From Sphyrna mokarran (Eukaryota): a stretch of 64,000 bases of DNA. Below, piece after piece: positions 12,094-63,120 of the stretch (position 1 is the first letter of the stretch; each line of letters opens with the position of its first letter). The DNA lies in the NCBI GenBank assembly GCA_024679065.1, contig JAGIQG010000008.1, forward strand, positions 14,136,001 through 14,200,000, in the 5' to 3' direction. The position numbers were made by a program, and so were the translations under genes. Below the pieces are notes generated by a model. That model saw only the letters and a list, made by a program, of their open reading frames with translations. It did no database searches and was not told where the DNA came from.

Positions 12094-12410
12094 CTGCAGA
12101 AATATTTGTTATATGTAAATCAATACAGGCACTCCTTCAGTAAAAATAACTTTGAAAAATATCCATATCCTTGCACATTAATGTTACAGAGATTTGCAGC
12201 TATAACTAGCTTCAATTAAGGTAGAATAAAACATTATTAGCTGAGGCAATCAAAATGTTTTGCAATTTAGTGATACAGAATTGAAACATCGTCATTGAAT
12301 TTGAAGATATGAGGTGGTTTTCACTTGAGTTAGGCATCTCATGGTGACTTAAGGTTAAGATGTTGCCCATTAATTCACTGCAAGTGCTCAGTAACAAATT
12401 ACTTTTCAGC

Positions 12411-12704
12411 CTTTTGGCTAAGATCAAGTGTAATATCGACATGCTGTGCTTGGTTGAAGTCATTAGGTTACATTTTAGCTTCATTTGAAGCAATTTTTAG
12501 AAGCGGCATCTTGATCTTTTGGCTCAGATGCAAATGAGATCAAGCCTTGGGAGGAGGAGCCATACCTCTTCCAATCAGCTTGGATCATGTAGATCAAGCC
12601 CAAGACATGGTGAGAGCCCTGTCTTGTCAGCTTGGATCAGGAATGTCCCAACTTGAGGCTCTGACATGGACTCGATTTGAATGAATTGAAATAAAAAATT
12701 TAAA
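12411..12704 (+). mobile_element. Retroposed element with U2 snRNA-derived 5' head (candidate U2-SINE or U2 chimera)
   Basis: 12409-12437 matches U2 nt 12-40 at 28/29; second U2-like motif about 12505-12529; A-rich tail; perfect 15-bp TSD AAATTACTTTTCAGC at 12396-12410 and 12705-12719. Confidence 0.8.
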
Positions 12705-13679
12705 AAATTACTTTTCAGCAAAATCTTGCCCATCATTTAAAGCTACTTGGTACAAACTTGGAAGATCATTATTAAAATCAAGTAAAGGTGTGGTAGGATA
12801 TAGCACATTCATTTTATTCACCATATCTTGTCCAATCATATGCACTACCTGCAAAGTAATTTAATATTTTAAGTGTTAGAAGAAATGCCATTGAACTCTG
12901 GCTGGTTACTACTATATATCAAGATAAGATCACAAGTAGATTTCAGTGCGACACTATGTCTGTTAAGAAATTGAGTTGAACAAGGCTAGTTCAATTGAAC
13001 AAACATTAAATGCTGCTTTCACTAAGTTTAACCTTAATATTAGACCACTCCTAAATGTAAAAATGTTATTCGCCAAAAGGTTCCATATAGATGAAAGGTA
13101 AAAATGTAGCCATGAAACATAACTAAGGTAATCATAAAATATTGCAGCAAGTACAGTTCATCAATTTAATTTTTTTCCATTCAATTAAATGAGACAAAAA
13201 TAAAGTTAACCTTAACCATGAAACAAATTTAAAAACAAAAATACAAACTACACGTCCATTAATGGAGCAAAGCTATTCATTCAATAGCTGGACAATGCAG
13301 GCTAAAAGAAAATAGTATTTGTAGAGTTAGCTGGTCTCAGCAGTGATCATAGTACAGATAGTAAAAGGAGGAAAAATTGACCAGATGTTCTATTCCTCAG
13401 CACTGTTCAGCACATTCAGTTGGTAATTCGGCGATAGAACTTGATTAGCTAAAGATGTTGAAAATTGTTCTCCGAGTTTCTGCTGGTCATGTTGTTTATA
13501 CCATTAAAGAGAAGACTACAGGATTGTCAGGTGTAAAATCATATTAGATGAGCTTTGCTGAGGAAATCTTTTCATCATTTTAAATAGCTCATTTAAATCA
13601 CAACTTTCTAAACAAGGTACATTTTATGCAACCTGTTCTCATAACTTGACTCTAAAACTTGATAAGTTTTTAGTGAATT

Positions 13680-14430
13680 TGCACCTAACCTCCTCCAAGA
13701 TCAAGGGGTTCTGCCTAAGGTTCGGTGTCCAAATGTTAACACAACACTCCAAATAGAATCTGACATGGCACTGTACTGCTAAAATAAAGCTTCATCAGTT
13801 TTGTATTCTAGGCCCCTTGATAAAAAAATTCCCATTACCTGTTTGATTATTTTGTACCTATGCCCTCTGTTTTAGCGATTTGAAAGCCTGTACATCAATC
13901 TCTGCTCCTGCACCGTTCGTATCATTTACTATTAAGAAATTACTCTGATTAAACTTTTGTAGATCCAAATTGGGTGAACTCACACCTTCTCCATAGTGAT
14001 TCCATCTGTCCCAGTTTTACCTACTCACTTATTCAGTCTATTGTGTCGTGGGACAAGTAACTGCGCCTCCTTACATAGTGTCACCTACAAACCTAACAGG
14101 AAATCTCTCCTCCCTCATTCATGGGGACAAAGGGAGACCCTAATACAGAACCCTGGGGAACACCAATCAGACAAAGGTTTTTTAGATCCTTACTCTAACT
14201 CCAACCTTCTAATTAATTATCAACCTATATATAGTTACCTTCAATTCAGTTCTAACTGTTATTAACAATCCCTCATGCAGATAATCTTATTTTACCAAAT
14301 ACCTTTTGGAAGCCTAAATAGATATATGCATTCCTCTACCAGCATAGGGCTGACTTAAATATTCAATTAAATTAGTCAAACATGTTCTACCTTTCAGAAA
14401 TCCATACAGATCTTTGATCAATTCAAAATT
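13680..14430 (-). mobile_element. Highly decayed CR1 RT fragment
   Basis: Remnant motifs (ACAGAACCCTGGGGAACACC = GVPQGSV reversed; AATACCTTTTGGAAGCC = DFQKVF-like reversed). Confidence 0.5.
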
Positions 14431-14750
14431 TGTTCAAATATTCAGTTATGCTAACCCTGGTGACAGATTCAAGTAATAACTTCCTCAAAACTGACAGAGT
14501 GCTTTCATGAATTAATAACAAAGCATCAAATTCGTCAACAACTCACAGCACCACATCTCTGGAGCTTTCAAAAGTGTAGCAAAGTCAATTTGAAAATTGA
14601 AGTTGAAATTCAAGTCAAGCTAGGTTCGTTAGCAAAATCTGTAAATCTTTAGAAGAGTCAAAATGAACATTGCATCGAACAAAATAAAATGCAGTCAAAT
14701 GTGGAACTGAAACAAACAGACAACAGAATTATGATATGCACCCATGTATG

Positions 14751-15625
14751 GGCTTGGATTTTACGTGAAGTAATGGCTCCAATGATATCTGTGGTGGGAA
14801 TTTCCCCCTTCCCGACTTTAGTTTAAAACTGGTGTCAGCAGGCATTTAGCAAATGATATCATCAAGCAGGATAAGCAGCATCTTAATGTTCAGCAATCCA
14901 GGAAGGAACATGGGCCTTTTTTTCCCCAAATTTAATTAAAATTTCACAGAACAAAAATAAATGTTTGGTACATACATCTTGAAATATAAAACAAACTGTA
15001 AAAAGAAATTAAAATGTGATTTTCTTTCATCATTACACAAATTTGACACTTATAAATAGAAAATTAGTTTCTCAGGATAGTAAGGCGATTTAGCAGAATT
15101 AAGGAGTGTTGCAAGTGTTTTTACAGCAAGACCAAGAATACAAAGAGCAATTTATCAGCAATTAAAGTAAAATTAAAGTTCATTTATTAGTCACAATTAG
15201 ACTTACATTATCACTGCAATGAAGTTTCTGTCAAAAGTCCCAAGTTGCCACATCTGAGGGTCAATATAACATGGCCAATTCACCTAACCTGCACATCTTT
15301 GGACTATGGGTAGAAATCGGAGCACCCTGAGGAAACCTACACAGACACACGGAGAATGTGCAAACTGGGACCTATTCCTGGGTCCCTAGTGCTGAGGCAG
15401 CAGTGCTAACTATTGTGCCAACATGCCACCTAAATTGATTGATTTCTGCTTGCTTGATTGCAGTCTAGGGAACTTCAATAATGCATTCAATGGGAAAACA
15501 GATATTTACTGATGGCAACTTTTGGATTTCTGCAAGTGTGGACTCCAAAGGTTGCTATCAGTTTTGGAGGTATAAGGACCGTCAGTGCTAACAGTTTCTA
15601 TTATGATTACTACTGTAAAATCTGG
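14751..15625. mobile_element. Probable MITE/non-autonomous DNA transposon containing a V-SINE
   Basis: Imperfect terminal inverted repeats TTGGATTTTAC / GTAAAATCTGG. Confidence 0.35.
15165..15430 (-). mobile_element. V-SINE (HE1-like)
   Basis: Same head, V-domain and tail as 4353-4627. Confidence 0.8.
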
Positions 15626-16386
15626 GATATTGTTTTTGCTGCATTGTAGTTGGAGGAAAATAATGAATATGTAATTGCTACTTTAATCAATTTGCTAATT
15701 TGTTTTGAGAGAAATGGCATTAAGACCATAAACATAGGCACTGCATAATGTCAGTATTCCAAAAGACTTGCTGGGATGTGATCTCGCAAGCAGCAGCAGT
15801 AAATACTTAAAATAATTTGCATAAATAAAATAACCTTGGAATTGCGATCAAATAAAAAATTGAAGACTTCAGACCATGGATAATTCTAACAGTTTCTCTG
15901 TAAAGCTGCCAAAAGACATTCCCTCATTAACTTTTAAACAAGCACCTATTTGGCAGATTTCCATGCTAAATTTCTTCTCACTCAAAGAACAGGAGTTTAG
16001 AATTAGTTCTTACAGCAGAAATCTGTAGCTACAGCGTGAAATCAAGAATATGGAGGTGGAAAACCAGCTGTGACATTTTTCTGAACATCATAATCATTTC
16101 TTCATTTGCAAGTTATTCAATATAAAATGGTACAAGAATTTTTACATTCACAAGTTATCTCAAGTCATCTTTTTAAACTTTATGGTATAGTAATTTTCTA
16201 CTTCCTTTAATACACTGTAAATGTAACAAAATAATGTTAATGTGAAACAAGTCATTAAATAGCAACGTACACAAACAAGCTGGATTCTGAAGCATTAAAT
16301 ATCAGCATTAAAACAGAAATTTTACAAGGAACTTCAATCAATTTAGTAAGTTAAATAGAAATTAACTTATTTAATTACTTGCTTAC

Positions 16387-25680: not shown

Positions 25681-26263
25681 GATGTAGAGATGCTGGCGTT
25701 AGATTGGAGTAACCACAGTAAGAGGTCTGACAACACCAATTTTAAATCCAACCGATTTATTTGATAGTAAACTCGTAAGCTTTCGGCTTTTGTAGCCTTC
25801 CTCAGGCGAATGAGGTGTTCTGGTCTGCAACAGCACACATATCAGCACATACAGTTTACAGATTGCTGATTAGAATGCGAATCCTTACACCTAACCTGCT
25901 ATTCAAGTCTTAAAGTGGCTAACAATGTGAGTGGAAGGAGCATTGAGCACAGGTTAGAGAAATGTGTATTGTGTCCAGACAGCACAGTAAGTGAGGTTTT
26001 TGCTAACCCAGGTAAGTCATGGGGGTTACAGATAGTATGACATGTCACACTATCTCACATTGTTAGCTACTTTAAGACTTGAATAGCAGGTTAGGTGTAA
26101 GGATTCGCATTCTAATCAGCAATCTGTAAACTGTCTGTGCTGATACGTGTGCTATTGCAGAGCAGAACACCTCATTCACCTGAGGAAGGCTACAAAAGCC
26201 GAAAGTGAATTTACTATCAAATAAATCAGTTGGATTTAAAATTGGTGTTGTCAGACCTCTTAC
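25681..26263. mobile_element. PLE-derived fold-back element (inverted pLTRs) with hammerhead cores
   Basis: About 210-bp inverted arms 25718-25931/26054-26263, 37-nt tail, perfect 12-bp TSD AGCAAATTGCAT (25669-25680/26264-26275); homologous to 1121-1450. Confidence 0.88.
25771..25811 (-). ncRNA. Minimal hammerhead ribozyme motif, sense to ARID2 pre-mRNA
   Basis: ATTCGC-CTGAGGA-A-GGCT-ACAAA-AGCC-GAAA-GC-TT-ACGAGT: intact core, perfect stem II, one mismatch at the core-proximal pair of stem I. Confidence 0.55.
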
Positions 26264-32049: not shown

Positions 32050-32265
32050 GACTTGATAATTTTAAACACACTCCACGACTTGATAATTTTAAACACACTC
32101 CACGACTTGATAATTTTAAACACACTCCACGACTTGATAATTTTAAACACACTCCACGACTTGACAATTTTAAACACACTCCACGACTTGACAATTTTAA
32201 ACACACTCCACGACTTGACAATTTTAAACACACTCCACGACTTGACAATTTTAAACACACTCCAC
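32050..32265. repeat. 27-bp minisatellite, 8 copies (GACTTGAYAATTTTAAACACACTCCAC)
   Basis: Four copies with T then four with C at unit position 8, otherwise identical. Confidence 0.97.
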
Positions 32266-35200
32266 GCTGATCTCTCACATTCTAATCTCCACAAACTCTG
32301 CTGCCCATATCCTAACTCAACTTCCTCTATGCTTGCCTAACCAGAGTGGCTCCCAGTTAAACAATGCTTCAGTTTTAAAATTCTTATCTTTGTTTTCAAG
32401 CTTCTACGTGGCACGACCACCTCCCTATCACTGTGATTTCTTCTGAGTTTACAATTATCCCCTCCAACCATGTCCAAGGCCTCAGAGCTCTGCCAATCCT
32501 GGACTTTTGAGCACTATCAATTTTATTCACTCTGTTACTATTGGCCTTGTCTTCTCTGCCTAGCCCCTATGCACCAAAATGTCCTCAATAAACTTCTGTA
32601 TTTTACTTTCCTCCTTGATGTCAGGTTTTTTTAAAAAAAAATCAGGTAACACTTAACACATCTTGAGAGATTTTGTTACCTTAAAAGGTATTACATAAAT
32701 GCAAACTATTGTTTTTGCAGTTAGTATTTGGCATAGAGTTTAAGGTCATGAAAAGTTATTCTTTCAGGCCATACAAATTAGCTTTCTATTGCCAATTACA
32801 TCTAGCTGAACATTAAGAGAATAAAACAAAATTCTACAAGGAAAATACACCTTTGGTAATTAGCTGCTGGTGAGTAGAGTTGAAACAAGCCACAAATTAA
32901 TCAGCAAGAAAGCAAAGGAAGAAACAAAGATTGCAGATGAAGGAGGCAATATTACTGGAAAACTGTTTAGTGTTTTGCTTTTCAGCTTGCAAAAGATTAA
33001 AAAGCAACTTGCCCCATCATAACACACAATTGTTTATTTTTTCAGCTTGAGTACCTGTTAAAGCAATTGCCTTTCCCTTGGCACTACCCAACCACCACCT
33101 CTCCCATACACACCATTTCCCCTCCCCACAAGAGTGTCAAAATACTTTGCTGAGAGAGGATCAACAGGTTTGTGCCAGAAAACCATTCTTTGGAGAACAG
33201 AAATTACAATGGGCAACTTCCATTTCTCCTTCAAAAGCAGATCTTCCATCTATGGAAGGTAGATCAATGGGGACAGAGAAGTGCATATCCAAATATCAAA
33301 TTAAACAATTATCACAGTGAACAAATCCCTACTGCCCAATTTAAGACTATAATGCTTCTAAATTTTGTTGTAAGTTTATATTTTCTCCCCTTACACTTTT
33401 TCAGGTCTCCCCTCGCCACAGACCATTCTCCAAGTCACGAGGAAGTGCATGAACATGGCCCCGGGGAAAACATCCCTCCAAATTTTCCTTCCTCTCTGTG
33501 AGAATGTGCCTGGTCTCTGCTGTTGAACAAAGAAAGATGGCAGTCATTTTCCAGCAGCCATACCATGGTTCACGTTGGTTCGGAATAAAAGGCCAAGTGG
33601 CAGGCCTGGGATGAAGCCAAATAACTCGAAGGTTAAAAATCCAAATTGCAACGGAGATTGACAGAACAAGAACATCTAGGGACGGAACATTAATTGATCA
33701 GTTATCCAAATGGTCTTTACTAGCTGCTGCCCTAGACAGCCTGGTATCACTAATATTTTCTGAACATCAATCTAGCCAACAGCTATCAACTTTGTACTAC
33801 TAATAATTTTATGACAGAGGTGCTGATAGTGCAAAGAAATTTTGAAATAGTTATCAGGTGAATCTACAGAAACTAGTAACTGGACATTTCTGATGCTTTT
33901 GTCTATGTGATTTAAAATTTAGTTTGTCTGAGGCATTGCTTTCATCCTTTCACACTGAACCCATTGCAGAACAGAACCTTCCTACAGCCACTGATCTGAG
34001 GCAAAACAACCCAGCAAGGACATGGGAATGATTTGAAGATCCTGTTGTTTACTTGGCTCATAACAAGGGAAATATGTCTACTTGGAACCATCCAGCGGCA
34101 CAAAGTTACGATTACTAAAAGAAAAGGCAGAACTCTTGAGCAAAGAAGGATGAGGCATTAGGAAGAAGAAATTGGGCAATATGGGTTTAAGATCTAAGCC
34201 AATAGGGAGGAAACAACCCATACCATGCAGGGGGTCTTGTGGCAAAAAATAAAGTGCAACTTTCTACATATTCAATGTTGTACATGTACAGTTAGGGAGA
34301 CCCAAGTGTTTGTATGTGGAAGATATAAATCTGAAAAGAAAAAATTAAATTAAAAAAACCACGGAAACAAAATAGTTCACACAAAATTTACAGATGTCAC
34401 ACAGGCAAAATTTTTGTGATTTTATTAAGTGAAGGGAAAGTTTATTAAATACTTCCCAATTCAATATTTAAAACTAAAAACTCTTAACGATCTGCTAGAT
34501 CATCATAAATTCATTCAGATATTTTCTTTCTCATGTTGACAACTGCAGGTCAGTTGGAATCCAAGCTGATCCATTGGTATGGTTTTGAAGACAGTCCACA
34601 TACACATTGGTACTCGAGAATGAAATACTTGCTTAAGGGCATCTTCCGTCAGCATCAAGCACATTCGGACACAAAGTATGGTCTGTCAATTTGTGCTGAA
34701 CTGAATACAGTTGAGTTGTGGGCGTGCAGCAACTAGCAAGGAGGTAGAGTTTAAATGGATCCACATAACCAAGAGATTGGAGACTTTAAATGTGAGCCAC
34801 AATTATATTTGAGCATTAATTTTAATCATCAGTTATCCTTATTGAGGAAAATCTCAGTCAATATCTCATTTAATAACTAAACAGATAGATGCAAAGTGCT
34901 GCGACCAACAACCTTTATTATGCTTGGCTGTGTTTATAAGAAGTTTGCTAAATGCTTGGAAGTTTTTGCTTTAGGAAGTGAAGCTGACAACACAAGGCAA
35001 GATACAAGCAAAGATAAATTTATGGAGTCGTACATCTTTACACAGGGTTATTACCATATTGACGGCAACTACCTCTGTTCTATGCTCTCAGTACCAACAA
35101 TAATCAGTTCAAATCCCTGAATTTGAAACTTTCCCAATTTTCTCCCCTTCTGAAGGGGAGCTGCGACACAAGTTGCTGGCAGATTGTAGTTGGCCATTCA

Positions 35201-37079: not shown

Positions 37080-38070
37080 TCATCACTACCCTCAGAAAAC
37101 TGCTCCACTGCTACTAAATTATCAGACTGCTTACCCAATATCTGATCCTGAATGAGGAATTTTTTTTTCTAATTAAATACTGGGAAGACAGAAGCCATTA
37201 TTTTCAGTCTCCACTTCAAAATTCATCCCTTAGTCATTGACTCCATCTCTCTCCCTGCCAACAGTCTGAAATTAAATCAGTCTGCTTTCAGTATTTGACG
37301 TGGAGTCACCAGTATTGGACTGCGGTAAACACAGTAAGAGGTTTCATAACACCAGGTTAAAGTTCAACAAGTTTTTTGATAATAAATTCACAAGTTTTTG
37401 GGATTTGCCCCTTCGTCAGGTGAGTGGAGTCACCACTCACCTGACAAAGGGGCAAACTCCAAAAGCTTGTGGCTTTACTATCAAATAAACTTGTTCAACT
37501 TTATCCTGCTGTTGTGAGACTTCTTTCAATATCTGATCCAGAGATGAGCTCCTAGCTTCGCATCCATGTCAACACCAAGGCTGCCTAGTTTCACCTCCAT
37601 AACGCTGCCTGATTTTGCTCACTTCAGTTTATTTGCTGCTGAAGCCCTTAATCCATTTCTCCTTTGCATCTAAACTTAACTACTCCAACACATTCCTGGC
37701 TGGTTTTCCCCAGTCTACCCTCCATAAACTTAAAGTCATCCAAAACTCTGCTGCCTGACTTAATTTACACCAATTCTCATTTCATTCTTCTGCTCACTGG
37801 CCTACATTATCTCCTGATGTTGACTTTGTAATTCTCAAACCTTGGTTTTCAAAATCTTTTATGTCCTTGATCCTTCCACACCCTCTCCAATTCTGGCTTC
37901 TTGTGTAATTATAATTATTCTACGATAGATGGATAGATGCAGTCTAACTCAAACTCGAACTCCTTCCCCAAACCACTCCTCTCTTCTTCATATTCCTCCT
38001 TTAATCCGTCTCTTTGACCACGCTTTAGGGCATCTTTCCTGACATCTGCTTATGAGACTCAAAGTCCGAT
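37080..38070 (+). mobile_element. Old L2-type LINE fragment interrupted by a PLE palindrome
   Basis: CTAAATTATCAGACTGCTT...AAAGTCATCCAAAACTCTGCTGCC (IQNSAA) L2 motifs. Confidence 0.55.
37299..37522. mobile_element. PLE-derived palindromic element with decayed hammerhead cores
   Basis: Inverted arms centred on GTGAGTGG-AGTCA-CCACTCAC (37420-37440); 14-bp TSD 37285-37298/37523-37536 (12/14 identical). Confidence 0.8.
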
Positions 38071-42926: not shown

Positions 42927-43196
42927 GGTTAGCACTGCTACCTCACAGAACCAGGTTCAATTCCCATCTTGGGTCAAAATCTGCGTGGAGGGTGAACGTT
43001 TTCACCACATCTGCACATGTTTTCTCTGGGTGCTGTATAGTTCAAAAGATGTACTGGTTAGATACACTGGCCATGTTAAATTCTCCCTCAGTGCATGTGA
43101 ACAGGTGCCAGAGTGTGGCAACTTGGGGATTTTCATAGTAACTTCGTTGCAGAATTAATGTAAGCTTACCGTGACACTAGCAAATAAATTTTAAAC
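42927..43196 (+). mobile_element. V-SINE (HE1-like)
   Basis: GGTTAGCACTGCTACCTCACAG head; TTAATGTAAGCTTAC..GTGACACT..AATAAA tail. Confidence 0.75.
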
Positions 43197-44588
43197 AGAT
43201 ACACCTACAATGCTGTTAGAAGAGAGTTCTGGGATTTTGATCCACTGGCAGTGAAGAAATAATGAGATTGTTCAAAGTCAATATGGAAGGGAACTTATAG
43301 ATGTTGTTGCTCCAAACATTTGCTGCTCGTGGCCTTCTAGGACATGAGTTTGGAAAGTGTTGCCAAAGGAACCTTCACGAGTTGTTGTAGTCTCTCTTAA
43401 TAAATGATGCATACAGCAGCTACTGTCCATTGGTGTGAGGAGTAAATGTTTAAGGTGATGGATAGAGTACTGACCAAGTTTTGGATGGTGCTGAGTTCAG
43501 AGGGAGCCCTACTCATCCAGGAAATTGGAGAGTATTCCATTCTAACTGTGTCTTGTAGACTATGGACAGGCTTTGAGTCAGGAGATAAATTATTTATCTC
43601 AGAATTTCCAATCTCTAACCTGTGCTTGTAGCCACAGTATATGGTTGCTCCAGTTCAGTTTCTGATCAATGGCAACCCCTGATGTTGATAGTGGGGGATT
43701 CAGCAAATGATAATGCCACTGAATATTAAGGAAAGATGATTATATTATTGTTGCTACAGATGGTCATTAACTGAACGTCTTTGAAAACAGTTGAGTGGAA
43801 AATGGTAAAGGGCACAGCATAGCAAAAGGAGCAGCAGATTACATGTTCAAGTGAACTAAACCAGGAATTTAAGTGAAAAACAAATCTTGTGGCAAATATT
43901 GCACCGTAACCAGAGAAAAATTAGTTTGTAAATGTTTGACTAAAGAGAAATTAGGAAAGATAATCAAAGGGGGCATAATGAAAATATCTACATGCAACAT
44001 GCCAAGTACCAGGTCCAATTTGTGCAAATAAGTATTTAAGCAAGATTTGAACACATTCCTTCATTCAAAAAAATGGTTCAATGAAGCAGAAATGAAAAAA
44101 GCTCATGATGCTTTGATAAATTCAATTTTTGATCTGGTTCTTTAGCTTTCAAGAACTGGCCACAGCTTAAGTAAAAGGGGGCAAAAGAAAACGTCGAAAA
44201 TTAAAATTACATTATTTCCGATCTATCATTAGATGTACTCTATGTCACAAAAATCCTATCTTAAGGTTCGATACAGGATTATTTGTGTACAGTTGTTGCC
44301 AAAACATTTGTAAAAGTTAGGAAATCTCATTATTTCCACATGCAAGCCCATTATTTCCCAAAATAAAATAATGACGCTTTATGAAATTTACAGGTCACAC
44401 AAAAGTTTTAGTAAATAAATCTAATTTGCCTTATATAATAGCCTTTTCTCTGGAGACAAGTTTCATAAATGTGTTACATTAGATAAAGCACTATGGTATC
44501 ATTCAATTTAAATTAGGGTTTGTAACAACACAAGAATATAAACAATTTTGCTGACTGAAATACACTATTTGTCAGAATAATTTCATAC

Positions 44589-47378: not shown

Positions 47379-48090
47379 GGGGATGATGCTCCCAAAAAAA
47401 TTCTAAGTGTCGAATTTGCACAAAAACTGGAGTAAATCCTACTGATTTTTCCAGCAGGAGTTTCAAAATAAATCTTCCACACTCTGTGCATTGCAGAAAG
47501 CACTAGCATGAATCACTCCAAAAATAAGTAGATGGCCTTTTCCCACTGGAGAGGCTGGCAACATAGTACTGACTGGGCCTATACTGATTGATCTGTCAGA
47601 GCTGGCCAGCCCTGCGACCTTCCCCTTTTCCAAGATCGTTGGCCATATGACCCTCCCACAGCCCAATTACTGGTCCCAAAGCACATCTGGGTGGGCCATC
47701 CCGCTAACCCCAAACACCAGCAGCCCCAGTCTCCCAACCGACAGGGCTGGGGCCTTGCCTAGCAATGCCTGGGGGGTACGCCCCCGAAGCCTCAACTCTG
47801 TGGGGGGTCCTCAATGGAGTCAAGGGGAAACCAAGTGGGGAGTTGTTGTAAAGCCCACTGGAGTGAAACACTCCTGGCGGGGGCAGAAACGCTACTGGAG
47901 ATTTCAGTCTCATTTAACTACGATCAGCATAACTTATACAACTCCGCAGCAATTTCTGGCACCAGATATCCGGCTGCCAAAGACTCGCGGGGGCCGTGGC
48001 ACCCAGCTGGAAGCCCGTGAAATGGTCTCTGCTCGAGTCACCCAACCGATTGTGCTGCAAATGCAGCGAAGTGGGCTGGAAGATTCTCCT
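47379..48090. mobile_element. GC-rich insertion (probable non-autonomous DNA transposon) splitting a CR1 3' fragment (about 47285-48250)
   Basis: CR1 sequence GCCAAAACATTGT stops at 47378 and resumes TTGTATGTTTTCAA at 48092; weak terminal inverted repeats. Confidence 0.45.
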
Positions 48091-49329
48091 CTTGTATGTT
48101 TTCAATGAGTTAGATATAGCTTTCGCGAGGCAATGTGGATTAAGGTATATGGCAGTGAGGCAGGTGAAATCATGCTATCGAGTTGGATGATCATCCATGA
48201 TCATAATGAATGATAGAGCATGCTCAAAGTGCTGATTTATGTTTCTATGTGAATAGCACTGTTAATGACTCCTTCCATCACTTTACTGATGATCAAGGAT
48301 AGAGTCATTGGCAATAAATGGTTGCAAGGATTTGTGCTGTTTTTGTGCAGCAGACATACTTGGGGAATGTTCCACATTTTGGGTAGGCGACAATGATGTA
48401 GCTGTATTGAAATAGCTTGGCTAGAGGCATGGCAAGTGAGAACACGTGTGGAATACTGTCTACAGTTTTGTTCTCCTTCTTTGAAAAGGAATGTAATTGT
48501 GTCAACAGTTTAGAGGTTCATTCTCTTCACTCCTGAGATGAAGGGCTTCGGAAGAACAATAAAACTGGTTGGGCCCAAACTCACTGGAGTTTAGAAGAAT
48601 GAGAGATGGTAAGATCCTCAGGAGGCATGATGGGACAAATACCAGAAGAATGTTTTCATCTGGGGAGACTGGAACTAGGGGACACAATTAATAATAACAG
48701 TTCTTTCTTAAGATGCGTATGAGGGTTTTTTTTCTTTGAGGCTTATGAGTCTGTGGAATTCTCTTCCCCAGAAAGAACTAGAGGCTGGGTCACTGAAGTT
48801 ATTCAAGCTGGGGTAGACAGATTATTGATGGACAAACATGTTAAGGGTTGTATGCAATGGCAGGCAGACTGGAAAGTGGAGCTGAGATCAATTTTGGTCT
48901 TACTGAATGGTGGTGCAGACTTGAAGAGCTGAATAACATATGTATGCTCCTATGTTCCTATGACCTGCGTATTTAAATAAAAAGGTCTGCTGGCTTTTGA
49001 CTTTACCTTTGCCAGCTACTCAGAACATCAGGATAAAGTCCAAGACAGTGAGATTCTGCAGTTTTCCAGTAGACAATTAACCTGAGCCATTTTAATCTTA
49101 CTTTGCCTGGTGTTCGTTGGGTGGGCAGAGTTAAAATGGCTCCCTTTGAATAAAGTAGGGAGCCTTTATTCACTGAGAGTGAACAACCTGATATCACGTT
49201 GTATTTAGAAAGGTCCAGTGAGTTTCTCATCTATCTTTACATAGATCTTGGGGCTGGAGTACACAAACTGCACAAAATCCAAAGTTTGACCACTTCCAGC
49301 TACTTCACAATGGATGCATAAGGGATTTT

Positions 49330-49625
49330 GGGGCAGCACAGTGACTAGCACTACTGCCTCAACGCACCAGTGACCTGGGTCCAGTTCCAGCCTTGGGTCA
49401 TTGGCTCTGTGGAGTTTGCACATTCGCCCCTTGCCTGTGTGAATTTCTCCAACAGTTCAAAAACGTGCAGGTTAGGTTGACTGGCTATGCTAAATTGACC
49501 TTTGGATCAAGGGGATTAACAGGGTAAATATGTGGGATTATGGGAATAGGGCCTGAGTGGGATTGTGATCGATGCAGACTCAATGGGCCAGATGGTCTCC
49601 TCCTTCACTTCAGGATTCTGTGATT
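49330..49625 (+). mobile_element. V-SINE (HE1-like)
   Basis: GGGCAGCACAGTGACTAGCACTACTGCCTC head, partial V-domain, CR1-type tail. Confidence 0.8.
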
Positions 49626-50730: not shown

Positions 50731-52188
50731 CTGTAAACAATCACATCAGGACAAATAAGCATAAAATTAAGCTAGTACAATCAATGCTTAAAACTATCCC
50801 TCCTCATTATTTACTTTTACATTTACTATTAGCACGTTAAAATTAAGAGATAACTTGTTTCAATAATAAATCCATAGTGTTTCCGTTAAAAAAAATATTG
50901 CATGCATACGCTTCAATTAACGATGTATCTTTTCAAAAGTGGCCATAACATTTACTTTACAGCGAAGATGCTGTAACCACCAACAGTTTAAAACAAATGC
51001 TTGGTCAATGATTGCAAGTGAATGGACAAGTACCTTCTTTATTTTCAAACAAGTTCTTACAACAGTTAACAAAAAAATCCAAATTCAAGGCTAAATTAGA
51101 TAGATTTTTGATCTACGATGTTTGATCTTTTGATAAGGGAGTCAAGGCTATGGAGAGCAGACAGGAAAGTTGTGACCACAACCAGATCAGCCATAATCTC
51201 ATCAAATGGTAGAACATGTTTTAGGTCCATGTTTTAAATGGACATAAATCATGCATGTTCTTGAAACATACCTAAATTATTTAAACCAATCCGTGTGTGC
51301 AACGCTAACTATCATATACAGATTATTATTTGTACATGAAAGAATCTAGAAGTCTTTTTAAAAATAAGCAACAGGAGCAAATTCAAACCCCAAAACAGAA
51401 TTAAAACAGCTACCAACTGTCTTCATGTACTGAATGTTAGTTAAAATGAAGAAAAATACTGCATTTCTAATTAAAATCTGGAATAAATTCTGATTCTCAT
51501 TTTCTTACATTAGTTAAAATACTCATTCCTGATCAAACCTAGAATAAATTAGAAGATGGGAAAGAACAATTGCAAAAATTAAGTGAAACAAGAAGTGAGA
51601 AGTGAAATGACAGCAGAAAGCCCAACAACAGCACAGTTTGATGGTGAGTGACAAGAAACAGTATTTATTGTGGACCTCAAAGAAAAGCTGTTAAAAAGAT
51701 TTAGCATGCTTCAGTGTACCCATTTCCTTTATTAGCCATAATCACCCAATATTCTCTCAATTCAGGAATTGTCCTTTTAGATTGGAAAATTTCAACTGCA
51801 GCTCCATTATTTAAGAATGATGGGAGAGAAAACTAGAAAGAATAATTCTTGTAGTCTAACATCTATTGTGGGTAAGTTATTGAAATTTATAAACAAAGAC
51901 AAAATGTCTGAACACATGTATCAATAACGGGTAGGTCATGTCTAAAAGTAACCAACTGAATAGATTTATTACTGTAACTTCAATGTTCATTTCAGTATCA
52001 CCTGCAAAACAGAAATCACAACTACCAAAAAAAAGGGAAAATCAGCAGACGTAATTTTTACTTTAAACCTCTTTTTTGCTGTCAATTTACATTACACAGA
52101 CAAAAAGATCAGTTCATAAAATAAGGATGAAAGCACTTCTGAAACGTTTTCATAATTCGATTACGAAGGATATGTTTGCTTCCAAAAC

Positions 52189-52421
52189 TTGGGTCACTGT
52201 GCGGAGTCTGCACGTTCTCCCAACATTTGTATGGGCTTACTCCAGGTGCTCCGGTTTTCTCCCACAGTCCACAATGTGTGCTGTTAGATGCACTGGCCAT
52301 GCTAAATTCTCCCTCAGTGAACTCGAACAGGCGCTGGAATGTGACGACTAGGGGATTTTCACAGTAACTGCATTGCAGTGTTAAGATAAGCCTATTTGTG
52401 ACATGAATAAATAAACTTTAA
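52189..52421 (+). mobile_element. V-SINE (5'-truncated)
   Basis: V-domain and GTGTTAAGATAAGCCTATTTGTGAC..AATAAATAAAC tail. Confidence 0.8.
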
Positions 52422-52771
52422 ATGAAAAGATTGAACGAAATTGGGTCTATATCCTTTGGAGTTCCAAAGAATAATGTTACTGAAACACACAAAATCCTGA
52501 AGGGATAAGAGTGGATAAGGATATTTTTTCTTGCGAGAGTCAGTGTTTAAGAATAAGAGTTCTCCAATTTAAAATGGAAATGAGGAGACTTTTCATTCTC
52601 TCAGAGGATCCTTAGCATGTAGGATTCTCTTCCCTAGAAACCTGAAGTTTAGGTCACTGAATTTATTCAAGGTTAAACTAGATAAGATTTTTGATAGACA
52701 AGAGTGTTGGTGAGTAGGCAGAAAAGAGGAGTTGAGATAATTAGATAATCTTACTGAATGGTGGAGCAGGC

Positions 52772-53984: not shown

Positions 53985-54879
53985 CTCAAAAGGCCAAATG
54001 TCCTACTCCTACTCCCAGGTTCGTTGCTCTACGTCCAAGCTTGCCAGTACCAATACAGTTATACTTAATTGCCCTATTAGTATTGTCTTTACATCTCACA
54101 ACCAAATTTGTTAACGACACTGAAATAAAGAGAGAAGCAAAGCTAAAGGATGCAGCTAAAAAAATGCAGATATATTTTTGATCATTTCTGTAACTGAACA
54201 GTTTTTCTGCCAATAAAATTTTAAACTGATAAATGCAGAAGTATTGAATAATGGTTAAAAAATAAATGTCAGGCATTTGTCTCAGTATATATTTTTCAGT
54301 ATGATTCAGCTACTCACTACTCTAACCAAATGAGCCAATAGGTGATAGATGCATCAGCATAAAATTCCTCCTGTTTGAAAAGGAAACGTGACCGCCTAAA
54401 CGGTGTGTGGTTATGTAGGTTGCCTTTGAGTCCATGACAATAAATGTTATCAAAACTTGCTTCTCATGGAATTTTCATAATTAATGTCTTCGCTATAAGG
54501 AAGTTACCAATTATTTGATTCTGATAACCTCAACACAGGCATGTTTATAAACTAATATTTAACTGTTATTTATACTGAGGTCCCTAGGGTATTGATTATT
54601 GAGATCACTTAATGTTTTAATTTGATGGCAATGACTCCAACCAAATCTTGATCTCAATCTTGATCTCAAGAATGCCTTTGATATATAGATTCTTCTTTCC
54701 ATTACTCCCAGCTCTCTCCACTGCTTTTGAAGGTTTCAGTATTCTGATCTATACACAATGATGCATTGCACTTCTGTAATGTTGAATGGTATTGGAAAAC
54801 CCACAGCTGATGTGGTGAATAATAATACTCAGAACTTGGACAACACCACCATTGTCAGAATTTATTGCCCATCTCTAAT

Positions 54880-57276
54880 CAGAACATAGAACAATACAGC
54901 ACAAACAGGCCCTTCGGCCCACGAGTTGCGCTATAACCTATCTATAACCCCCTATCCTATTCCTTTCCATATACTCATCCAGAAGTCTCTTAAAAGACCC
55001 CAGTGAGTTTGCCTCAACAACCTCCGACGGCAGTCGGTTCCATTCACTCACCACCCTCTGAGTGAAAAACCTGCCCCTGACATCTCCTTTGTATTTGCTT
55101 CCCTGCACCTTAAATCTGTGTCTTCTCGTAGTGACCATTTCAGCTCGGGGAAATAGCCTCTGAGAGGCCACCCTATCTATCCCTCTCAACATTTTATAAA
55201 CTTCTATCAGGTCGCCTCTTAACCTACGTCTCTCCAGTGAGAAGAGTCCCAGCTCCCTTAACCTATCTTCATAAGGCCTGCCTCCCAATCCAGACAGCAT
55301 CCTTGTAAATCTCCTCTGAACTCTCTCAATAGCCTCTACATCCTTCCTATAATGAGGCGACCAGAACTGCGCACAATACTCCAACTGGGGTCTGACAAGA
55401 GTCTTATAGAGCTGCATCATTACTTCCTGACTCCTAAACTCTATTCCTCAATTAATAAAGGCTAGTACACCTTATGCCTTCTTGACCACTTCCTCCACCT
55501 GCAAGACCGATTTAAGAGTCCTATGGACCCGGACCCCGAGATCCTTCTGCTCTACAATACAGATAAGACTCCTACACCTTATATTGTACACCTTCATCCC
55601 ATTATTCCTACCAAAATGGACCACTACACATTTATCTGCATTGAAGTCCATCTGCCACTTCTCCGCCCAGTCTTGCATCCTGTCTATGTCCCGCTGCATC
55701 CCTCCAGACCATCCACAACACCACCGATCTTTGTATCGTCGGCGAACTTGCTAACCCATCCCTCCACTTCCTCATCCAGGTCATTTATGTAAATGACAAA
55801 CAGCAGGGGTCCCAGAACAGATCCCTGGGGCACTCCACTGGTTACCCACCTCCATGCAGAACATGACACAACCACAACCACTCTCTGCCTTCTGCCGGCA
55901 AGCCAGTTCTGGATACACGAGGCCAAAGCCCCTTGGATCCCATGCCCTCTCACCTTCTCCAGAAGCCTTGCATGGGGGACCTTATCAAATGCCTTACTAA
56001 AGTCCATGTACACTATGTCCACCGCCCTTCCTTCGTCAACGTGTTCAGTCACATTTTCGAAGAACTCAACTAGGCTCATAAGGCATGACCTGCCCTTGAC
56101 AAAACCATGCTGACTATTTCTAATCAGTCCAAACTTCTCCAAATGTTCATATATCTTATCCCTCAGAAGCCTTTCCATCAGCTTATCAACCACTGAAGTC
56201 AAACTCACCGGTCAGTAATTTCCTGGACTATCCCTGTTCCCTTTCTTAAAGGTAGGAACCACATCCGCAATCCTCCAATCCTCCGGAACCTCTCCCGTTT
56301 CCATGGACGACGCAAAGATCATCGCCAGGGGCTCTGCAACCACTTCCCTCAACTCCCACAATAACCTGGGATACATCCCATAAGGTCCTGGCGACTTGTC
56401 TATCTTGATAGAATTTAACAGGTCTAACACATCCTCTTTCCTAACATCCACATACTCAATCTTTTCCGTATGCCTCAAACCTGCAGTGCAATCTCCCAGT
56501 TCACTTTCCACCGTGGATACCGAGGCAAAGTACTCATTAAGCACCTCTGCCACTTCTTCCGGATTCACACAGACTTTTCCCCCTTCACCTTTTATAGGCC
56601 CTATCCCTTCTCTTCTCATCCTTTTACTTTTCACATATTTGTAGAAAGCCTTGGGATTCTCCTTAATCTTACCTGCCAAGGCCTTCTCATGACCCCTTCT
56701 GGCTCTCCTAATTTCCTTTTTAAGTTCCCTTCTACACACCTTATACTCCTCTAGATTCCTAACATCCCCCAGCTCTCTGAACCTTTTATATACCTTTTTT
56801 CCCTTCCTAACTAGGTTCACCACTACCTTCGTGTACCACGGTTCCCGCGTCCTACCAGAACCTCCTTGACTCCTCGGAACGTTGTCTTGCAGTGCCCCAG
56901 ACAAACAATCCTTGAAAAACCGCCACTTTCCTTCTGTACTCTTCTCCAAGAACACCTCCTTCCAGTTTATGCGTCCAATTACCTGCCTAATGTTTTCATA
57001 TTTCTCCTTACTCCAGACATACACCTTCCTAGCCTGCCTGATCCTATCTCTTTCCATCGCTATCGTGAAAGAGATAGAATTATAATCTCCATTCCCAAGA
57101 TGCTCACCTACCGTGAGATCCGACACCTGCCCTGGCTCATTAGCAAGCACCAGGTCAAGTACAGCCTCTCCTCTTGTAGGCTTTTCCACGTACTGTGTCA
57201 GGAAACCTTCCTGAACACACCTAATAAACTCCACACCATCCAAACCCCTTACCCTTGGGATATTCCAGTCGATGTT
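54880..57276 (-). mobile_element. Young 5'-truncated CR1/HER1-like LINE, ORF2 reverse transcriptase with few disruptions
   Basis: ORF pieces 56212-57243, 55684-56208, 55472-55699, 54938-55420 with [37 protein letters not shown] motifs; AGAACATAGAAC tail. Confidence 0.95.
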
Positions 57277-57665
57277 TGCCCCAAGGTGATGGGCCCCAAG
57301 TCTAAATTGTCACAAACTTTTATAAAAAAAAGTACAAACCATCATTAAAAAACTACAAATGAAATTCCTGATTTCATAACAAGATATTGCCAATAACATG
57401 AGCAAAAGATAAACTAGTTTTCTAAATACTAACAAGCTTTGCGCAGGAGCACCATATAAATAACACGGCACACTTCACATCAAACTTTAATAGGTGAATA
57501 TTCCAGCAGACTTGACAAACTTGTTTGGTAGCCTATTTAGCTGAGATGAACAAATTATGAACTTGCGTATCTTGGGTTCTTGATTGTTAAATTTTGTATT
57601 CACAATGAAAACGTTATCACAACAAACACTGTCAACACACATTAGCATCCTGTAGTATAACTTAC

Positions 57666-57884: not shown

Positions 57885-59590
57885 CTAAAAGAAAAAACAA
57901 ATTATTAAGCATAAGTAAAAATTATGCTGATTTATCAGTGCTCTATTAACGTAAAGTACTCTGTTGTGATGATGATGCATCAGCCAATCATTTTCACCGA
58001 TTTTTAAATACCAATATTTTTGCATGTTATGTTTAATGAAAATACATTTTCATATTCTGTCTCAAATGCAAAGCATGGAGCATCAAGTGGAATTATACTA
58101 TGGGTTGTTAATTTGAGTACAAAAAGAACACAACTATGCACAAAACAAGCAAACCAATTCTATAATCAGATCAGTCACATACTTGCTCATTGAAAATAAA
58201 AAGTTGCAACTTTATCAACAACACAGCATGCACCTAATTGGCAACTTAAATTGCAACAGGTTTCATCTGAGCCTGTACTATCCATATCCTGCTCCATGTG
58301 GCAGATAATACAGAAAACGTAGGATATAGACGATGATTAATTTGATTTATTGTCACATGAATTAATATACACAGTGAAAAGTATTGTTTCTCACATGCTA
58401 TATGAAGCATACCATACATGGAGAACAAAAGGAGAGAGTGACGAATGTAGTGTTGCAGTAATACAAGAGTTAGAATAAAATAAATTTCGAATGAAGTTTT
58501 AGAAGCACAGAGCAAGGGTAAAACATAGAATTAGAGGGTATGCTGGGCATAGCTTTCAAGAAGTCAACATGCTCCAGCGCTATCTTGGAGTTTCTTGAGG
58601 TTAAAGATGACTAACTCAATGTCAGAACCCATTTGTAACACTGAGGAAGAAGAGGTCAGACTAGCAAATTTGTAATACAACACCCAGAGGTCATGTACTC
58701 AAATTCTACCAGGACAACATTCAGAGCAGAAGTCAGTGAATCTGCTTATCTGTGATTAGCAGGGGGGAGAAAAAACGAAATTACCACATCATAGTAATGG
58801 AAATTGTTTGATACCAACAGCATATATCAATTTCATTGCTATCTGAATAACTGAGATAGGTATGAGTTTAGCCACACCATTCAGCAATGCCCATTCAATA
58901 GACTTGTCTATATGATGTGGCTGACTCTTAATGCTACATGAAATACTCCAACAAACCAGTCATTAGGACAACTAGGGACATGCAATAAACATGGTTTGGC
59001 CAGTGTTAGCCACATCACGAAAATAAATAAAATCTCTGTCAGGATGTGAACAAAAGTAGCACTAGTGTTATTAAAATATGAAGAAAGCTGGTAATGGTAG
59101 ATAGGAATCTAGGAAAATATCAATGGTTCTATCCTTCTTGAATTAACTACTCTAAGAGCTCTTTTATGACCAAAAAAAGTCATGCTACCACACTATTTTG
59201 AAAGAAACCTTTTCTGGAAGTACATTGTCACCATAGACTAAATTAATTTATTCTCACAAACTAAAGCAGAGTTAATTAGATCTAAATCTAATGTTGCTGT
59301 GCCAATTTTCCAGTATAAAACAAAGGCAACAGTATCAATTTCTCAAGGCAGAGATCTATGCCTTTCTTCTGATCAACAGGTTGAGGACTTTGTTCACAAC
59401 TGTATACATCTTCAAACCAGATTGATAAATTAATCTGCCCCAATTAGAGCTTGCAATGTGCGCTAGCCCACTCTGGCCATCTCTCCAAATTGCCTTCTCC
59501 CGTTCTTTACTTGCCTCCTAGTGCAAATGAACTTACAAATGGGTAGATCATTCAGTTCCTCAAGCCTGTGGAAAGAAATCAATATCAGTT

Positions 59591-59886
59591 CATAGAATCT
59601 CTACAGTACAGAAGGAGGCCATTTGACCCATCAAATCTGTACCAACCACAATCTCATCCAGGCCCTATTCGCGTAACCCTCGTTTATCTTGCTAATCCCC
59701 CTGACACTAGGGTCAATTTAGCACGGCTATCAACCTAATTTGCACGTCTTTGTCTGCTTGGGTTTCCTCCAGTTGCTCCAGTTTCCTCCCACAATCCACA
59801 GGGAGAAAGTGCAAATTCCACACAGAGGCTGGAATTGAACTTGGGTCCCTGGTGCTGTGAGGCAGCACTGCTAACCACTGTGCCAT
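59591..59886 (-). mobile_element. V-SINE (HE1-like), internally rearranged
   Basis: CATAGAATCTCTACAG tail and GGTGCTGTGAGGCAGCACTGCTAACCACTGTGCC head (reverse); central V segment about 59750-59795 inverted. Confidence 0.75.
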
Positions 59887-60850: not shown

Positions 60851-62840
60851 CAGTACCCTTTCATTGGTGAATAGAATTTTGAGTTGCAATTTCTTGATTC
60901 ACAGTTATTTCTGGGATCTTATTTGTACAATTTTCCTATAATTAGTATGGAGAAAAACAGACAATACGCCAACAGATGCATTGTGCAAATTTCCTTAATG
61001 GTCATGTGCAGATTGCCTAATTTATTCTGAGGACAGAGGATAAATTTAGGGCAGAATTCTCCCCAACAGCATGCAGCAGATTTGTGGATAGTACGGGTGA
61101 TGAATCTAGCAAGAGTCAAAAAAATCGAAAACTTGTCGTTGTTAAATCTTGCTACTATTCTCTAAATGACAGGTCTCCCTTCCCACTGGCAGATGTTGCA
61201 AATGCTTTATTTCTATCTTAGGAGTGCTCATTAAAACAGCTGCCTGGGGCCATCCCATCAGGCCTTTCAATGTTGTATCATATCTGATTGCTAATAAGTG
61301 GTAAGCACAAGGCGATCCTCAGGTTAGAGTGAGTACAACAACTTTCTGCCATAGTGCTGCTCTCTTTCTGAGATGCTGTTCACCATTATGCTGGGGCAGA
61401 CCAGCTCCTACCTCCATTTCCCATGCTGAACTGTGTTGATGGGCAGAACCTTGATGCTGGACCCATGGACCTCCTGTGTTAGAGTCAGATAGGTACTGTG
61501 CCTGCAACTGTACAGGACAGGGAATTCCATAGAACCCTCCTTCAGTAGATAATATGATATCCCTGGTGCCATACAGCAGAGTTTATCTGGGTAGGAAGGT
61601 GCTGTGGGACTTGTGCTGACACTGTAACAAAGGTCTGAATTTTGACCGGCATGGGTGGAGTATGAAGGGATGAGGTTTAACAAGAGCAAGAGGGGACAAT
61701 GTTGAAAGGCAGCTGTGCAAGGAGGGAGGGAGGAAGGATGGATGAGGGCTCATGATGGCAAGCAGAAAAGGATGCAGATGAAGATGAAGACGAAGAATGG
61801 AAAGTGGAGGGAAAACTGAGGGAAGGGAAACTGGACTCCAACAAGACTATATAACAAACCCCCAAACAAGGGACTCAAAGGGATACCCACATTGTTTACT
61901 GAAGGGGATGGAGGAAGACTCCCAATAAAATCATATGAGGTCCAAATGAGCCATGGGCACTTCACATGATGGGTTTGGGGAGAGTCTAGCTGAATCGAGG
62001 AACAAATATCTTCTCTCCTTTAACCATATCTGTAATTGCAATATCATAATTCCATGTAGTAATCCAAGGTCTCAGTTCATCTGTCTTACATGATATATTT
62101 AATTACATAATATATATTTTGAGCTGATTTTGAAAAAAAGCAACATGTCCCTACACATCTATGATTTCCCTTGCAACTTCTCGCCACAAGTGAAGTGAAA
62201 CTCCCATCATCAGAGTCAGTAGCAGCTGAGAAAGGTTTGTATTCACAGCTGACTGCTCAATATTTTACACAGAACATACAGTGTAGAAACTTTAGCTCTG
62301 TTCTCTCTCCACGGATGTGGTCAGGCTTGCTGAGATTTTCCAGCAATTATCTTTTTTGTTTTAGACACCAGCATCCACACAATTTGTGTTTATATCATTG
62401 GCCTTTGCACATCACACAAGTGAATATATTCTTTGTCTAACCCTTCACTGGGGTGGAGTTAACATTTCAAATTTTTCCTCACTCAAATAGTAAATAGGTA
62501 CGGTGTTAAACATTAATTTTAAAATATAAAATATGTTTAGACAGTCACATGGGAAAGATGAACATAGAAGGATATGGGCCAAATGGGATTAGCTTTTGGG
62601 TGTGTGTGGTGTGTGTGTGTGTGGTGTAAAAACAAAGGGTGGCATGGACAAATTGGGCCAAAGGGCCTGTTTTCATGTGTAAACCTCTATGACAGCTTTG
62701 AAAAGAAACTTCACTTGCTGAGCAAAAAAAATAGATACGAGTATTAGAATGCAGAATGAATCTGTGTTTCTGGCAATATTCCCAGTCTCAGGATGTTCAC
62801 TCAGTCATCCTCACCCTCTAAGTGGATGATAGTGTGTGTT

Positions 62841-63120
62841 TAAAGTTGTATTTAATAGTCACACTTGCGTTCACATTAACACTGAAATGAAGTTACGATG
62901 AAAATCCCCTAGTCATCACACTCCAGTGCCTGTTCAGGTAAACTGAGGGAGAATTTAGCATGGCCAATGCATCTAACCAGCATGTCTTTCTGACAGTGGG
63001 AGGAAACTGGAACACCTGGGGGAATCCACGCAAACACAGGAGGGCAGACAGTCATCCAAGTGGGAACTGACCCGGGGCTCTTGGCGCTGTAAGGCAGCAG
63101 TGCTAACCATTGTCCCACCA
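62841..63120 (-). mobile_element. V-SINE (HE1-like)
   Basis: Same head, V-domain and tail as 4353-4627. Confidence 0.8.

What the first reader, a model, noticed from the sequence alone, without database searches (positions are those of the whole stretch)
12396..12719. Candidate U2 snRNA-derived SINE with perfect 15-bp TSD
Seen: 294-bp insert starting with U2 nt 14-40, then a non-U2 body with a second U2-like motif (about 12505-12529), repeated AGATCAAG and CAGCTTGGATCA motifs, and an A-rich tail, flanked by an identical 15-bp TSD (L1/Tx1-like mobilisation). Established: snRNA-headed SINEs (SINEU) are known from crocodilians, and Keno and Utopia retrotransposons insert about 37-38 nt into U2 genes, close to where U2 similarity ends here. 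Inference: a shark U2-headed non-autonomous retroposon, possibly born from a U2-targeting element and transcribed from a U2 promoter. The TSD itself resembles U2 nt 1-13 (9/13, all transitions), suggesting homology-aided 5' joining.
Basis: partly seen in the sequence, partly recalled or inferred. Interest (0 to 1): 0.75.

Follow-up and report, generated by a model that had tools for sequence, protein, structure and literature searches.

The report
Shark U2-derived structured retroposed RNA
A shark intron holds a short reverse-transcribed insert built from the splicing RNA U2 and folded into conserved hairpins, probably a new family of snRNA-headed jumping elements of a kind so far described only in crocodilians.

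Summary
A 294-bp insert sits between perfect 15-bp repeats, antisense in an intron of shark ARID2. It opens with U2 nt 14-40 (26/27) and ends in AATAAA plus an A-rich tail. New here: the body is an evolved RNA structure, not a random fused fragment. (1) 12445-12469 pairs back on U2 nt 11-35 (14 Watson-Crick, 7 G-U, 0 A-C, 4 mismatches). (2) An Sm-like site lies at nearly U2's distance. (3) Two duplicated hairpins keep an invariant 8-bp base built on U2 nt 25-31, and their 7-bp upper stem shows 5 compensatory double changes. (4) The empty site matches the Keno/Utopia U2 target in register (11/20) and resembles the SINEU-3 TSD, which points to a Tx1-clade mobiliser and may partly explain why the TSD looks like U2 nt 1-13. 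Best reading: one copy of a SINEU-like non-autonomous retroposon whose RNA locks its U2 splicing face. Copy number, the empty orthologous site and Dfam/Repbase status could not be tested, because no shark DNA collection was available. 'Family' and 'new' are therefore inferred, not shown.

The parts
12396..12410 (+). 5' copy of the 15-bp direct repeat (TSD); 12398-12410 also reads as a degenerate U2 nt 1-13
12411..12437 (+). U2 head, nt 14-40, 26/27 identical; G36A in the branch-site pairing stretch
12445..12469 (+). Fold-back arm pairing without gaps with 12408-12432 (U2 nt 11-35): 14 WC, 7 G-U, 0 A-C, 4 mismatches at U2 nt 16-17 and 23-24
12478..12491 (+). 5-bp hairpin directly before the Sm-like site (pair probability 0.77)
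12492..12500 (+). Sm-like site AATTTTTAG at element nt 95-103 (human U2 Sm site is nt 98-107); A in place of the first G after the U run
12504..12545 (+). Second, interrupted U2-like segment (12516-12529 resembles U2 nt 14-27; 12510-12518 is the reverse complement of U2 nt 23-31); fold ambiguous
12528..12535 (+). Exact octamer motif ATGCAAAT inside the element; function untested
12537..12587 (+). Hairpin module B: 8-bp base stem on U2 nt 25-31 plus variable upper stem
12591..12639 (+). Hairpin module C: duplicate of B with identical base stem and compensatory changes in the upper stem
12640..12689 (+). 3' segment without significant structure (z +0.1); candidate partner-LINE tail, source not identified
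12690..12704 (+). AATAAA followed by short A-rich tail
12705..12719 (+). 3' copy of the TSD; with the next 5 nt it lines up without gaps with the Keno/Utopia target (U2 nt 39-58) at 11/20
12338..12356 (+). Tentative PSE-like stretch in the flank at -60 (11/19 to a human U6 PSE); may be chance
12192..12199 (-). Tentative 7/8 octamer in the flank at -206; may be chance
12094..16386 (-). Host intron of ARID2; the element lies antisense, about 300 nt from the acceptor at 12095-12094

Best explanation
This is one retroposed copy of a short, non-coding, U2-derived retroposon of sharks that works like crocodilian SINEU but arose separately. Shown in the sequence: TSD, U2 head, poly(A) signal and A-rich tail, and a body folded into a fold-back arm, an Sm-like site and two covarying hairpins. 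Inferred mechanism: (a) A source copy is transcribed by RNA polymerase II from an outside promoter; internal T runs argue against Pol III. (b) The RNA keeps a U2-like frame (5' end, hairpin, Sm-like site, 3' stem-loops) that could be stabilised by snRNP biogenesis, while the arm pairs over U2 nt 11-35 and G36 is changed, so it should not act in splicing. (c) A Keno/Tx1-Mar-like Tx1 protein with relaxed preference for sites resembling U2 nt 39-58 nicked before 12396 and primed on the A-rich tail. (d) U2 nt 5-12 and nt 45-52 resemble each other, so the 15-nt target overhang could pair with the cDNA end, and joining fell at U2 nt 13/14.
For: Unique exact 15-bp repeat with A-rich tail. Fold-back arm: 21 of 25 positions pair; 0 of 19,858 random 52-nt stretches reach this in any of 27 registers; G-U versus A-C split 7 of 12 against 0 of 9, Fisher p 0.007. 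By folding energy, 26 of 2,979 random tails and 62 of 3,000 shuffles do as well. Modules B and C: base stem 8 of 8 pairs invariant; of 10 upper pairs 5 change on both sides, 1 on one side, 2 are invariant, 2 break; slid controls pair 29-50% against 94%. 7 of 7 pairing in a fixed register occurs in 186 of 127,972 window 28-mers and 168 of 200,000 shuffles. Whole element z -2.7, 0 of 100 shuffles; the + strand folds better than the - strand, -93.0 against -76.5. Sm-like site within 11 positions by chance 0.1-0.8%. Target likeness: 11/20 to the Keno target (1.0% of window 20-mers; 0.2% of 4,740 sites starting AAA), 9/16 to the SINEU-3 TSD at +1, and 9 of 13 positions shared by both published targets (0.3-0.5%). 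SINEU precedent, Tx1-Mar clustering with Keno, and U2-headed Tx1 families (PMC4494074). Tx1 present and full L1 absent in whale shark (PMC8455134).
Against: No second copy in the 64 kb (blastn, nhmmer). No translated copy in three protein searches covering three reading-frame pieces (weak tests). No partner LINE with a shared 3' end: the only RT found among 146 of 197 long ORFs scanned is a CR1-like element whose tail differs. Target-likeness falls to 2-4% if four nick registers are allowed, and it was noticed after the fact. The covariation rests on two paralogous modules, and the structure was derived from them (11 of 500 shuffles reach it). Arm limits were chosen after folding. 5 of 122 GC-matched windows fold at least as well, at least four of them at inverted-repeat elements. 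The Sm-like site is not a perfect consensus. No expression evidence.
Confidence: 0.6

Rival explanations
1. A rare retrocopy of a host gene: a shark-specific U2-derived small RNA (a variant snRNA with its own function) that is not itself a mobile family.
For: Selection on structure and an Sm-like site at U2 spacing fit a functional RNA. Polyadenylated snRNA retrocopies with TSDs exist in mammals (PMC4476161). No second copy in the window.
Against: A poly(A) signal and internal duplications of U2 pieces are features reported for SINEU. No Rfam family matches the body.
Confidence: 0.17
2. An internally deleted non-autonomous derivative of a U2-headed or U2-targeting LINE (Keno-like Tx1 or Utopia), the hairpins being its UTR signals.
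For: U2 similarity stops at nt 40, 2 nt past the Keno/Utopia site after nt 38. The tail matches the 3' end of turtle Utopia-1_CPB at 13/15 by eye, with the target in the same register. Tx1-11_Crp carries a U2 head.
Against: No ORF remnant. Alligator Utopia insertions keep TCTG next to the junction in 14 of 31 listed rows (read by eye), whereas this site matches distally and starts AAA. Reptile Utopia make 20-bp TSDs. The AT-only tail match is cheap.
Confidence: 0.13
3. The 13-mer is the element's own U2-variant start rather than target DNA: either an in-place snRNA-type gene under the flanking promoter-like motifs, or a unit copied from a head-to-tail array so that it carries terminal repeats.
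For: 9/13 likeness to U2 nt 1-13 in exact register, all transitions, three at CpG. PSE-like 11/19 at -60 and 7/8 octamer at -206, jointly 0.45% of positions. Inside the element, an exact octamer at -179 and a 10/19 PSE-like stretch at -65 relative to the second repeat.
Against: Two different promoter readings both look significant while the 5' flank does not resemble the element's 3' part, so at least one is chance. Thresholds were set at the observed scores. The PSE-like stretch lacks the ACC core of the three published PSEs. Repeat, A tail and AAA start fit ordinary target-primed insertion.
Confidence: 0.06
4. A one-off template-switch chimera of a U2 5' fragment and an unrelated RNA.
For: snRNA chimeras and truncated snRNA retrocopies are known.
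Against: The body pairs with the head, repeats a U2 8-mer twice more and covaries. U6 and U6atac make up most validated template-switch chimeras in mammals.
Confidence: 0.04

Closest known systems
SINEU-3 (crocodilian U2-derived SINE; Kojima 2015, PMC4494074)
   Same: Short, U2 5' head broken near the branch-pairing region (32 nt there, 40 here), unique 3' part, A tail, TSD of 15-16 bp that resembles ours (9/16 at +1), internal T runs, no internal Pol III promoter. From the paper's lengths its 83-nt middle piece should include the Sm site (my inference).
   Different: SINEU-3 is U2 with a ~50-nt deletion. Here U2 nt 41 onward is replaced by a fold-back arm and duplicated covarying hairpins, and the body has no independent U2 hit. 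Host is a shark; the paper found no SINEU outside crocodilians. The flank is not a repeat within the window.
SINEU-1 / SINEU-2 and U2-headed Tx1-Mar families
   Same: Repeated additions and partial duplications of U2-derived pieces; Tx1 mobilisation proposed.
   Different: No U1 part; sequence kinship of the bodies could not be tested (consensus not readable).
Keno (Tx1 clade) and Utopia (restriction-like endonuclease clade)
   Same: The site downstream of the nick resembles their U2 nt 39-58 target in register; the tail resembles Utopia-1_CPB.
   Different: No ORF; not inserted in a U2 gene; the junction-proximal TCTG is absent.
U2 snRNA (Rfam RF00004) and its retrocopies
   Same: nt 14-40 nearly identical, Sm-like site at similar distance, 3' stem-loops.
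   Different: 45.1 bits is below the gathering score of 46; stem-loops IIa/IIb, III and IV are not recognisable; the 5' domain is paired in cis; the RNA is 100 nt longer and ends in a poly(A) signal.

Membership tests
SINEU | 5' head derived from U1 or U2 snRNA | tested here: met
SINEU | Short (<500 bp), non-coding | tested here: met
   294 bp; stops in all six frames; no Pfam hit for the two element peptides scanned
SINEU | 3' poly(A) tail and target-site duplication | tested here: met
   A-rich tail is short and interrupted; TSD exact
SINEU | Internal oligo-T runs, no tRNA-type head | tested here: met
   T4-T5 runs; no tRNA gene in the window
SINEU | Many dispersed copies sharing one structure | not testable with these tools
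   No shark DNA collection; none in the 64 kb
SINEU | Sequence kinship to SINEU-1/2/3 bodies | not testable with these tools
   Consensus only in figures and Repbase; supplement unavailable
SINEU | Target preference shared with Tx1-Mar (Mariner-N4) | tested here: inconclusive
   9/16 to SINEU-3 TSD; flank not repeated in the window
SINEU | Crocodilian host range as described | tested here: not met
   Shark ARID2 locus; so filed as SINEU-like, not as a member of SINEU-1/2/3
U2 snRNA (RF00004) | Score at or above gathering 46 bits over the whole model | tested here: not met
   45.1 bits; no hit at gathering; body alone no U2 hit
U2 snRNA (RF00004) | Upstream PSE and DSE | tested here: inconclusive
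   Weak motifs at -60 and -206; shark U2 PSE not available
Keno / Utopia | Endonuclease and RT ORF | tested here: not met
Keno / Utopia | 3' flank is U2 from nt 39 | tested here: not met
   11/20 only; flank shows no significant U2-head likeness
Tailless snRNA retropseudogene | 3'-truncated small RNA with no tail | tested here: not met
   Long body and A-rich tail; definition in PMC5322556
Ribozyme-bearing retroelement | Hammerhead or HDV-like core | tested here: not met
   No Rfam hit; my simple descriptors found none on either strand

The most novel reading that the evidence does not exclude
A retroposon that parasitises U2 snRNP biogenesis as Alu parasitises SRP. It carries an Sm site and two or three locked copies of U2's branch-point stem-loop: the module 5' strand is U2 nt 25-31, the 3' strand turns the weak pairs into Watson-Crick pairs, and the branch-recognition tip is replaced by a covarying hairpin. 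It takes its U2 nt 1-13 from the target duplication, and in tandem insertions its internal octamer could promote the next copy. This would suggest an answer to the open question of how SINEU-type elements are transcribed and stabilised.
Probability: 0.12. Interest if true: 0.85.

Novelty: new variant of a known kind. Interest (0 to 1): 0.58.

Why it matters
snRNA-headed SINEs have been described only from crocodilians (PMC4494074: none detected outside; still cited that way in PMC5381603), and how they are transcribed is stated there as open. A shark family would be a second, independent origin. Its covarying hairpins give a concrete structure to test what such RNAs bind. The fold-back arm suggests how a U2-headed RNA avoids disturbing splicing. 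The target likeness predicts a TSD motif that can be checked in one genome search. If instead the source is a host gene, it is an undescribed vertebrate U2-derived RNA. My literature searches found no shark U2-headed SINE, but they cover only open-licence papers and preprints, and Repbase and Dfam were not searchable.

Tried and rejected
Copies in the window: none (blastn word 7; nhmmer). Copies as host contamination in bacterial genomes: 4 pattern matches, none extending beyond the pattern, in line with my rough estimate of about 7 by chance; rejected. Copies as mis-predicted proteins: one hit for peptide 12538-12681 (E 1.6e-13) is a 4003-aa tandem-repeat protein whose stretches score at most 6.3 bits each; chance. 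No hit for 12397-12534 or 12501-12653; the antisense frames were not searched. Older decayed copy in the flanks: 20 comparisons, best p about 0.02-0.04, not significant. CR1 as mobiliser: the CR1-like element at 57309-54880 ends in a TTCTATG-type tail, with no similarity to the element. The 12-nt tandem at 54644-54669 containing AGATCAAG lies about 210 nt beyond that tail and is taken as chance. Ribozyme, tRNA, snoRNA or miRNA identity: none. The near-copy of the TSD at 12849-12862 (13/14, minus strand) has no explanation and is treated as chance. Species-level naming through cluster members was not available. SINEU supplement not readable, so SINEU consensus sequences were not compared.

Full report
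Setting. The window is a shark ARID2 locus. The 961-aa exon piece is 91% identical to Carcharodon, 89% to Scyliorhinus canicula, 82% to Hemiscyllium and 67% to Callorhinchus ARID2. Exons map on the minus strand. The finding lies antisense in the intron after the large exon (19185-16387), about 300 nt from the acceptor at 12095-12094. The species was not determined.

Observation. The 15-nt repeat is exact and unique in the window outside one minisatellite, and it is the only exact pair of 12 nt or more with an A-rich run before the second copy. Rfam finds nothing at gathering level in 64 kb. At E-value level U2 matches 12398-12597 with 45.1 bits. The head alone scores 33.3 and the body alone has no U2 hit, so clear U2 homology is confined to the head. 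Against the human U2 line in PMC4640811 S1, the head is 26/27 for nt 14-40 and the first repeat is 9/13 for nt 1-13, all transitions.

The body is a selected RNA structure. (i) 12445-12469 pairs without gaps on U2 nt 11-35: 14 WC, 7 G-U, no A-C, and four mismatches in two 2x2 loops. None of 19,858 random stretches does as well by pair count. Neutral decay of an inverted copy would give A-C as often as G-U; the split is 7 of 12 against 0 of 9 (p 0.007). The energy-based tests are milder: 26 of 2,979 random tails, 62 of 3,000 shuffles. The arm covers the parts of U2 that form stem-loop I (nt 7-26), U2/U6 helix I (20-28), part of the branch-point stem-loop (25-45) and the start of the branch helix (32-44) (domain limits from PMC12424890). 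(ii) A 5-bp hairpin is followed by AATTTTTAG at element nt 95-103, against nt 98-107 for the U2 Sm site; chance 0.1-0.8%. (iii) Modules B and C are duplicates. Their 8 base pairs are invariant. Of the 10 upper pairs, five differ on both sides and still pair, one differs on one side, two are invariant and two break. Full pairing of 7 in a fixed register has a background near 0.1%. With only two sequences this is suggestive covariation, not a phylogenetic proof. The 5' strand of the base stem is U2 nt 25-31, the 5' strand of the branch-point stem-loop. Its partner resembles U2 nt 38-45 with weak pairs made Watson-Crick; one such change, C40U, is described as hyper-stabilising. Whether this is descent or plain complementarity cannot be told.

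The target site. Read from the start of the repeat, the empty site matches the Keno/Utopia 3' target (U2 nt 39-58; PMC6136364; PMC4640811) at 11/20 with no gap, 8 of these within +5 to +14. It matches the SINEU-3 TSD at 9/16 when shifted by one. Backgrounds are 1.0% of 20-mers, 0.2% of AAA-starting sites, and 0.3-0.5% for the 13 positions common to the two published targets, rising to 2-4% if four registers are allowed. Tx1-Mar, the proposed SINEU mobiliser, clusters with Keno. Utopia is the other candidate: the tail resembles Utopia-1_CPB (13/15 by eye). But alligator Utopia junctions keep TCTG in 14 of 31 listed rows and reptile Utopia make 20-bp TSDs, while this site starts AAA and matches distally. 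Whale shark has Tx1 repeats and no full LINE1. U2 nt 5-12 and 45-52 share a core (read), which would put a 15-nt overhang from such a target in register with U2 nt 1-13 and favour joining at nt 13/14. Microhomology at 5' junctions is documented for L1 (PMC2912911). This step is inference.

Transcription. Internal T runs argue against Pol III, as for SINEU. The flank has a PSE-like stretch at -60 and a 7/8 octamer at -206, jointly 0.45% of positions. The element itself has an exact octamer at -179 and a weaker PSE-like stretch at -65 relative to the second repeat. The flank and the element's 3' part are unrelated, so both readings cannot reflect one origin, and I treat these p-values as inflated. 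The idea that an upstream copy drives a downstream one rests on tandem SINEU-3 insertions and on recalled HeT-A biology; it is a lead only.

What could not be tested. No eukaryotic DNA collection was available, so copy number, the empty site and Dfam/Repbase status are open. Indirect routes were negative or chance. These are weak tests and do not argue strongly against a low- or middle-copy family.

Papers seen. PMC4494074: parts 1-4 of 5 of the text, no figures or supplements. PMC4640811: passages, part 2 of 5, and S1 figure parts 1 and 8 of 8 plus searched rows. Passages only: PMC6136364, PMC5322556, PMC5499810 ('snRNA' 0 occurrences), PMC7245038, PMC12424890, PMC8455134, PMC4476161, PMC2912911, PMC1790723, PMC3544641, PMC3706591, PMC5381603. 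All others were seen as search listings only. The original Keno paper was not read, so Keno's TSD length is unknown to me. Recalled, from no call: the Alu/SRP analogy, HeT-A promoter logic, and the family names given to other repeats in the window.

Verdict. A real retroposed insertion of an evolved U2-derived structured RNA. It works most likely like SINEU-3 and is not a member of the described crocodilian families. Novelty: new variant of a known kind, pending a database look-up. Interest 0.58.

Noticed in passing
window 12408-12437 (minus strand): Because the element is antisense to ARID2, the pre-mRNA carries about 28 nt nearly fully complementary to U2 nt 11-40 some 315-345 nt upstream of an acceptor; it could bind U2 snRNA. 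No evidence of an effect.
   Followed up: no
window 12849-12862: 13/14 copy of the TSD on the minus strand, 130 nt downstream of the element; looks like a cryptic 3' splice site of ARID2.
   Followed up: partly
window 54880-57309 (minus): 5'-truncated CR1-like LINE with RT domain (Pfam RVT_1, E 5.5e-22) and a TTCTATG-type tail; a second, more decayed piece at 63506-64000.
   Followed up: partly
window 25718-26263 and 1133-1447: 546-bp element with 214-bp inverted arms at 94% identity, related to a copy at 1133-1447; MITE-like.
   Followed up: no
window 9182-9349 and 37336-37525: Two related palindromic elements (about 83% self-complementary), weakly related to the 25718 element.
   Followed up: no
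window 4150-4620, 6514-6683, 15164-15426, 43039-43197, 49336-49623, 52188-52422, 59590-59885, 62837-63123: Abundant diverged (66-79% identity) short repeat family, probably the common elasmobranch tRNA-derived SINE (name recalled, not tested).
   Followed up: no
window 32050-32266: 27-bp minisatellite, 8 copies, 99% identical.
   Followed up: no
window 54644-54669: 12-bp tandem duplication containing the reverse complement of AGATCAAG; taken as chance.
   Followed up: partly
window 47512-48108: 198-aa stop-free frame in a GC-richer intronic stretch with no Pfam match; possibly a decayed mobile-element remnant.
   Followed up: partly
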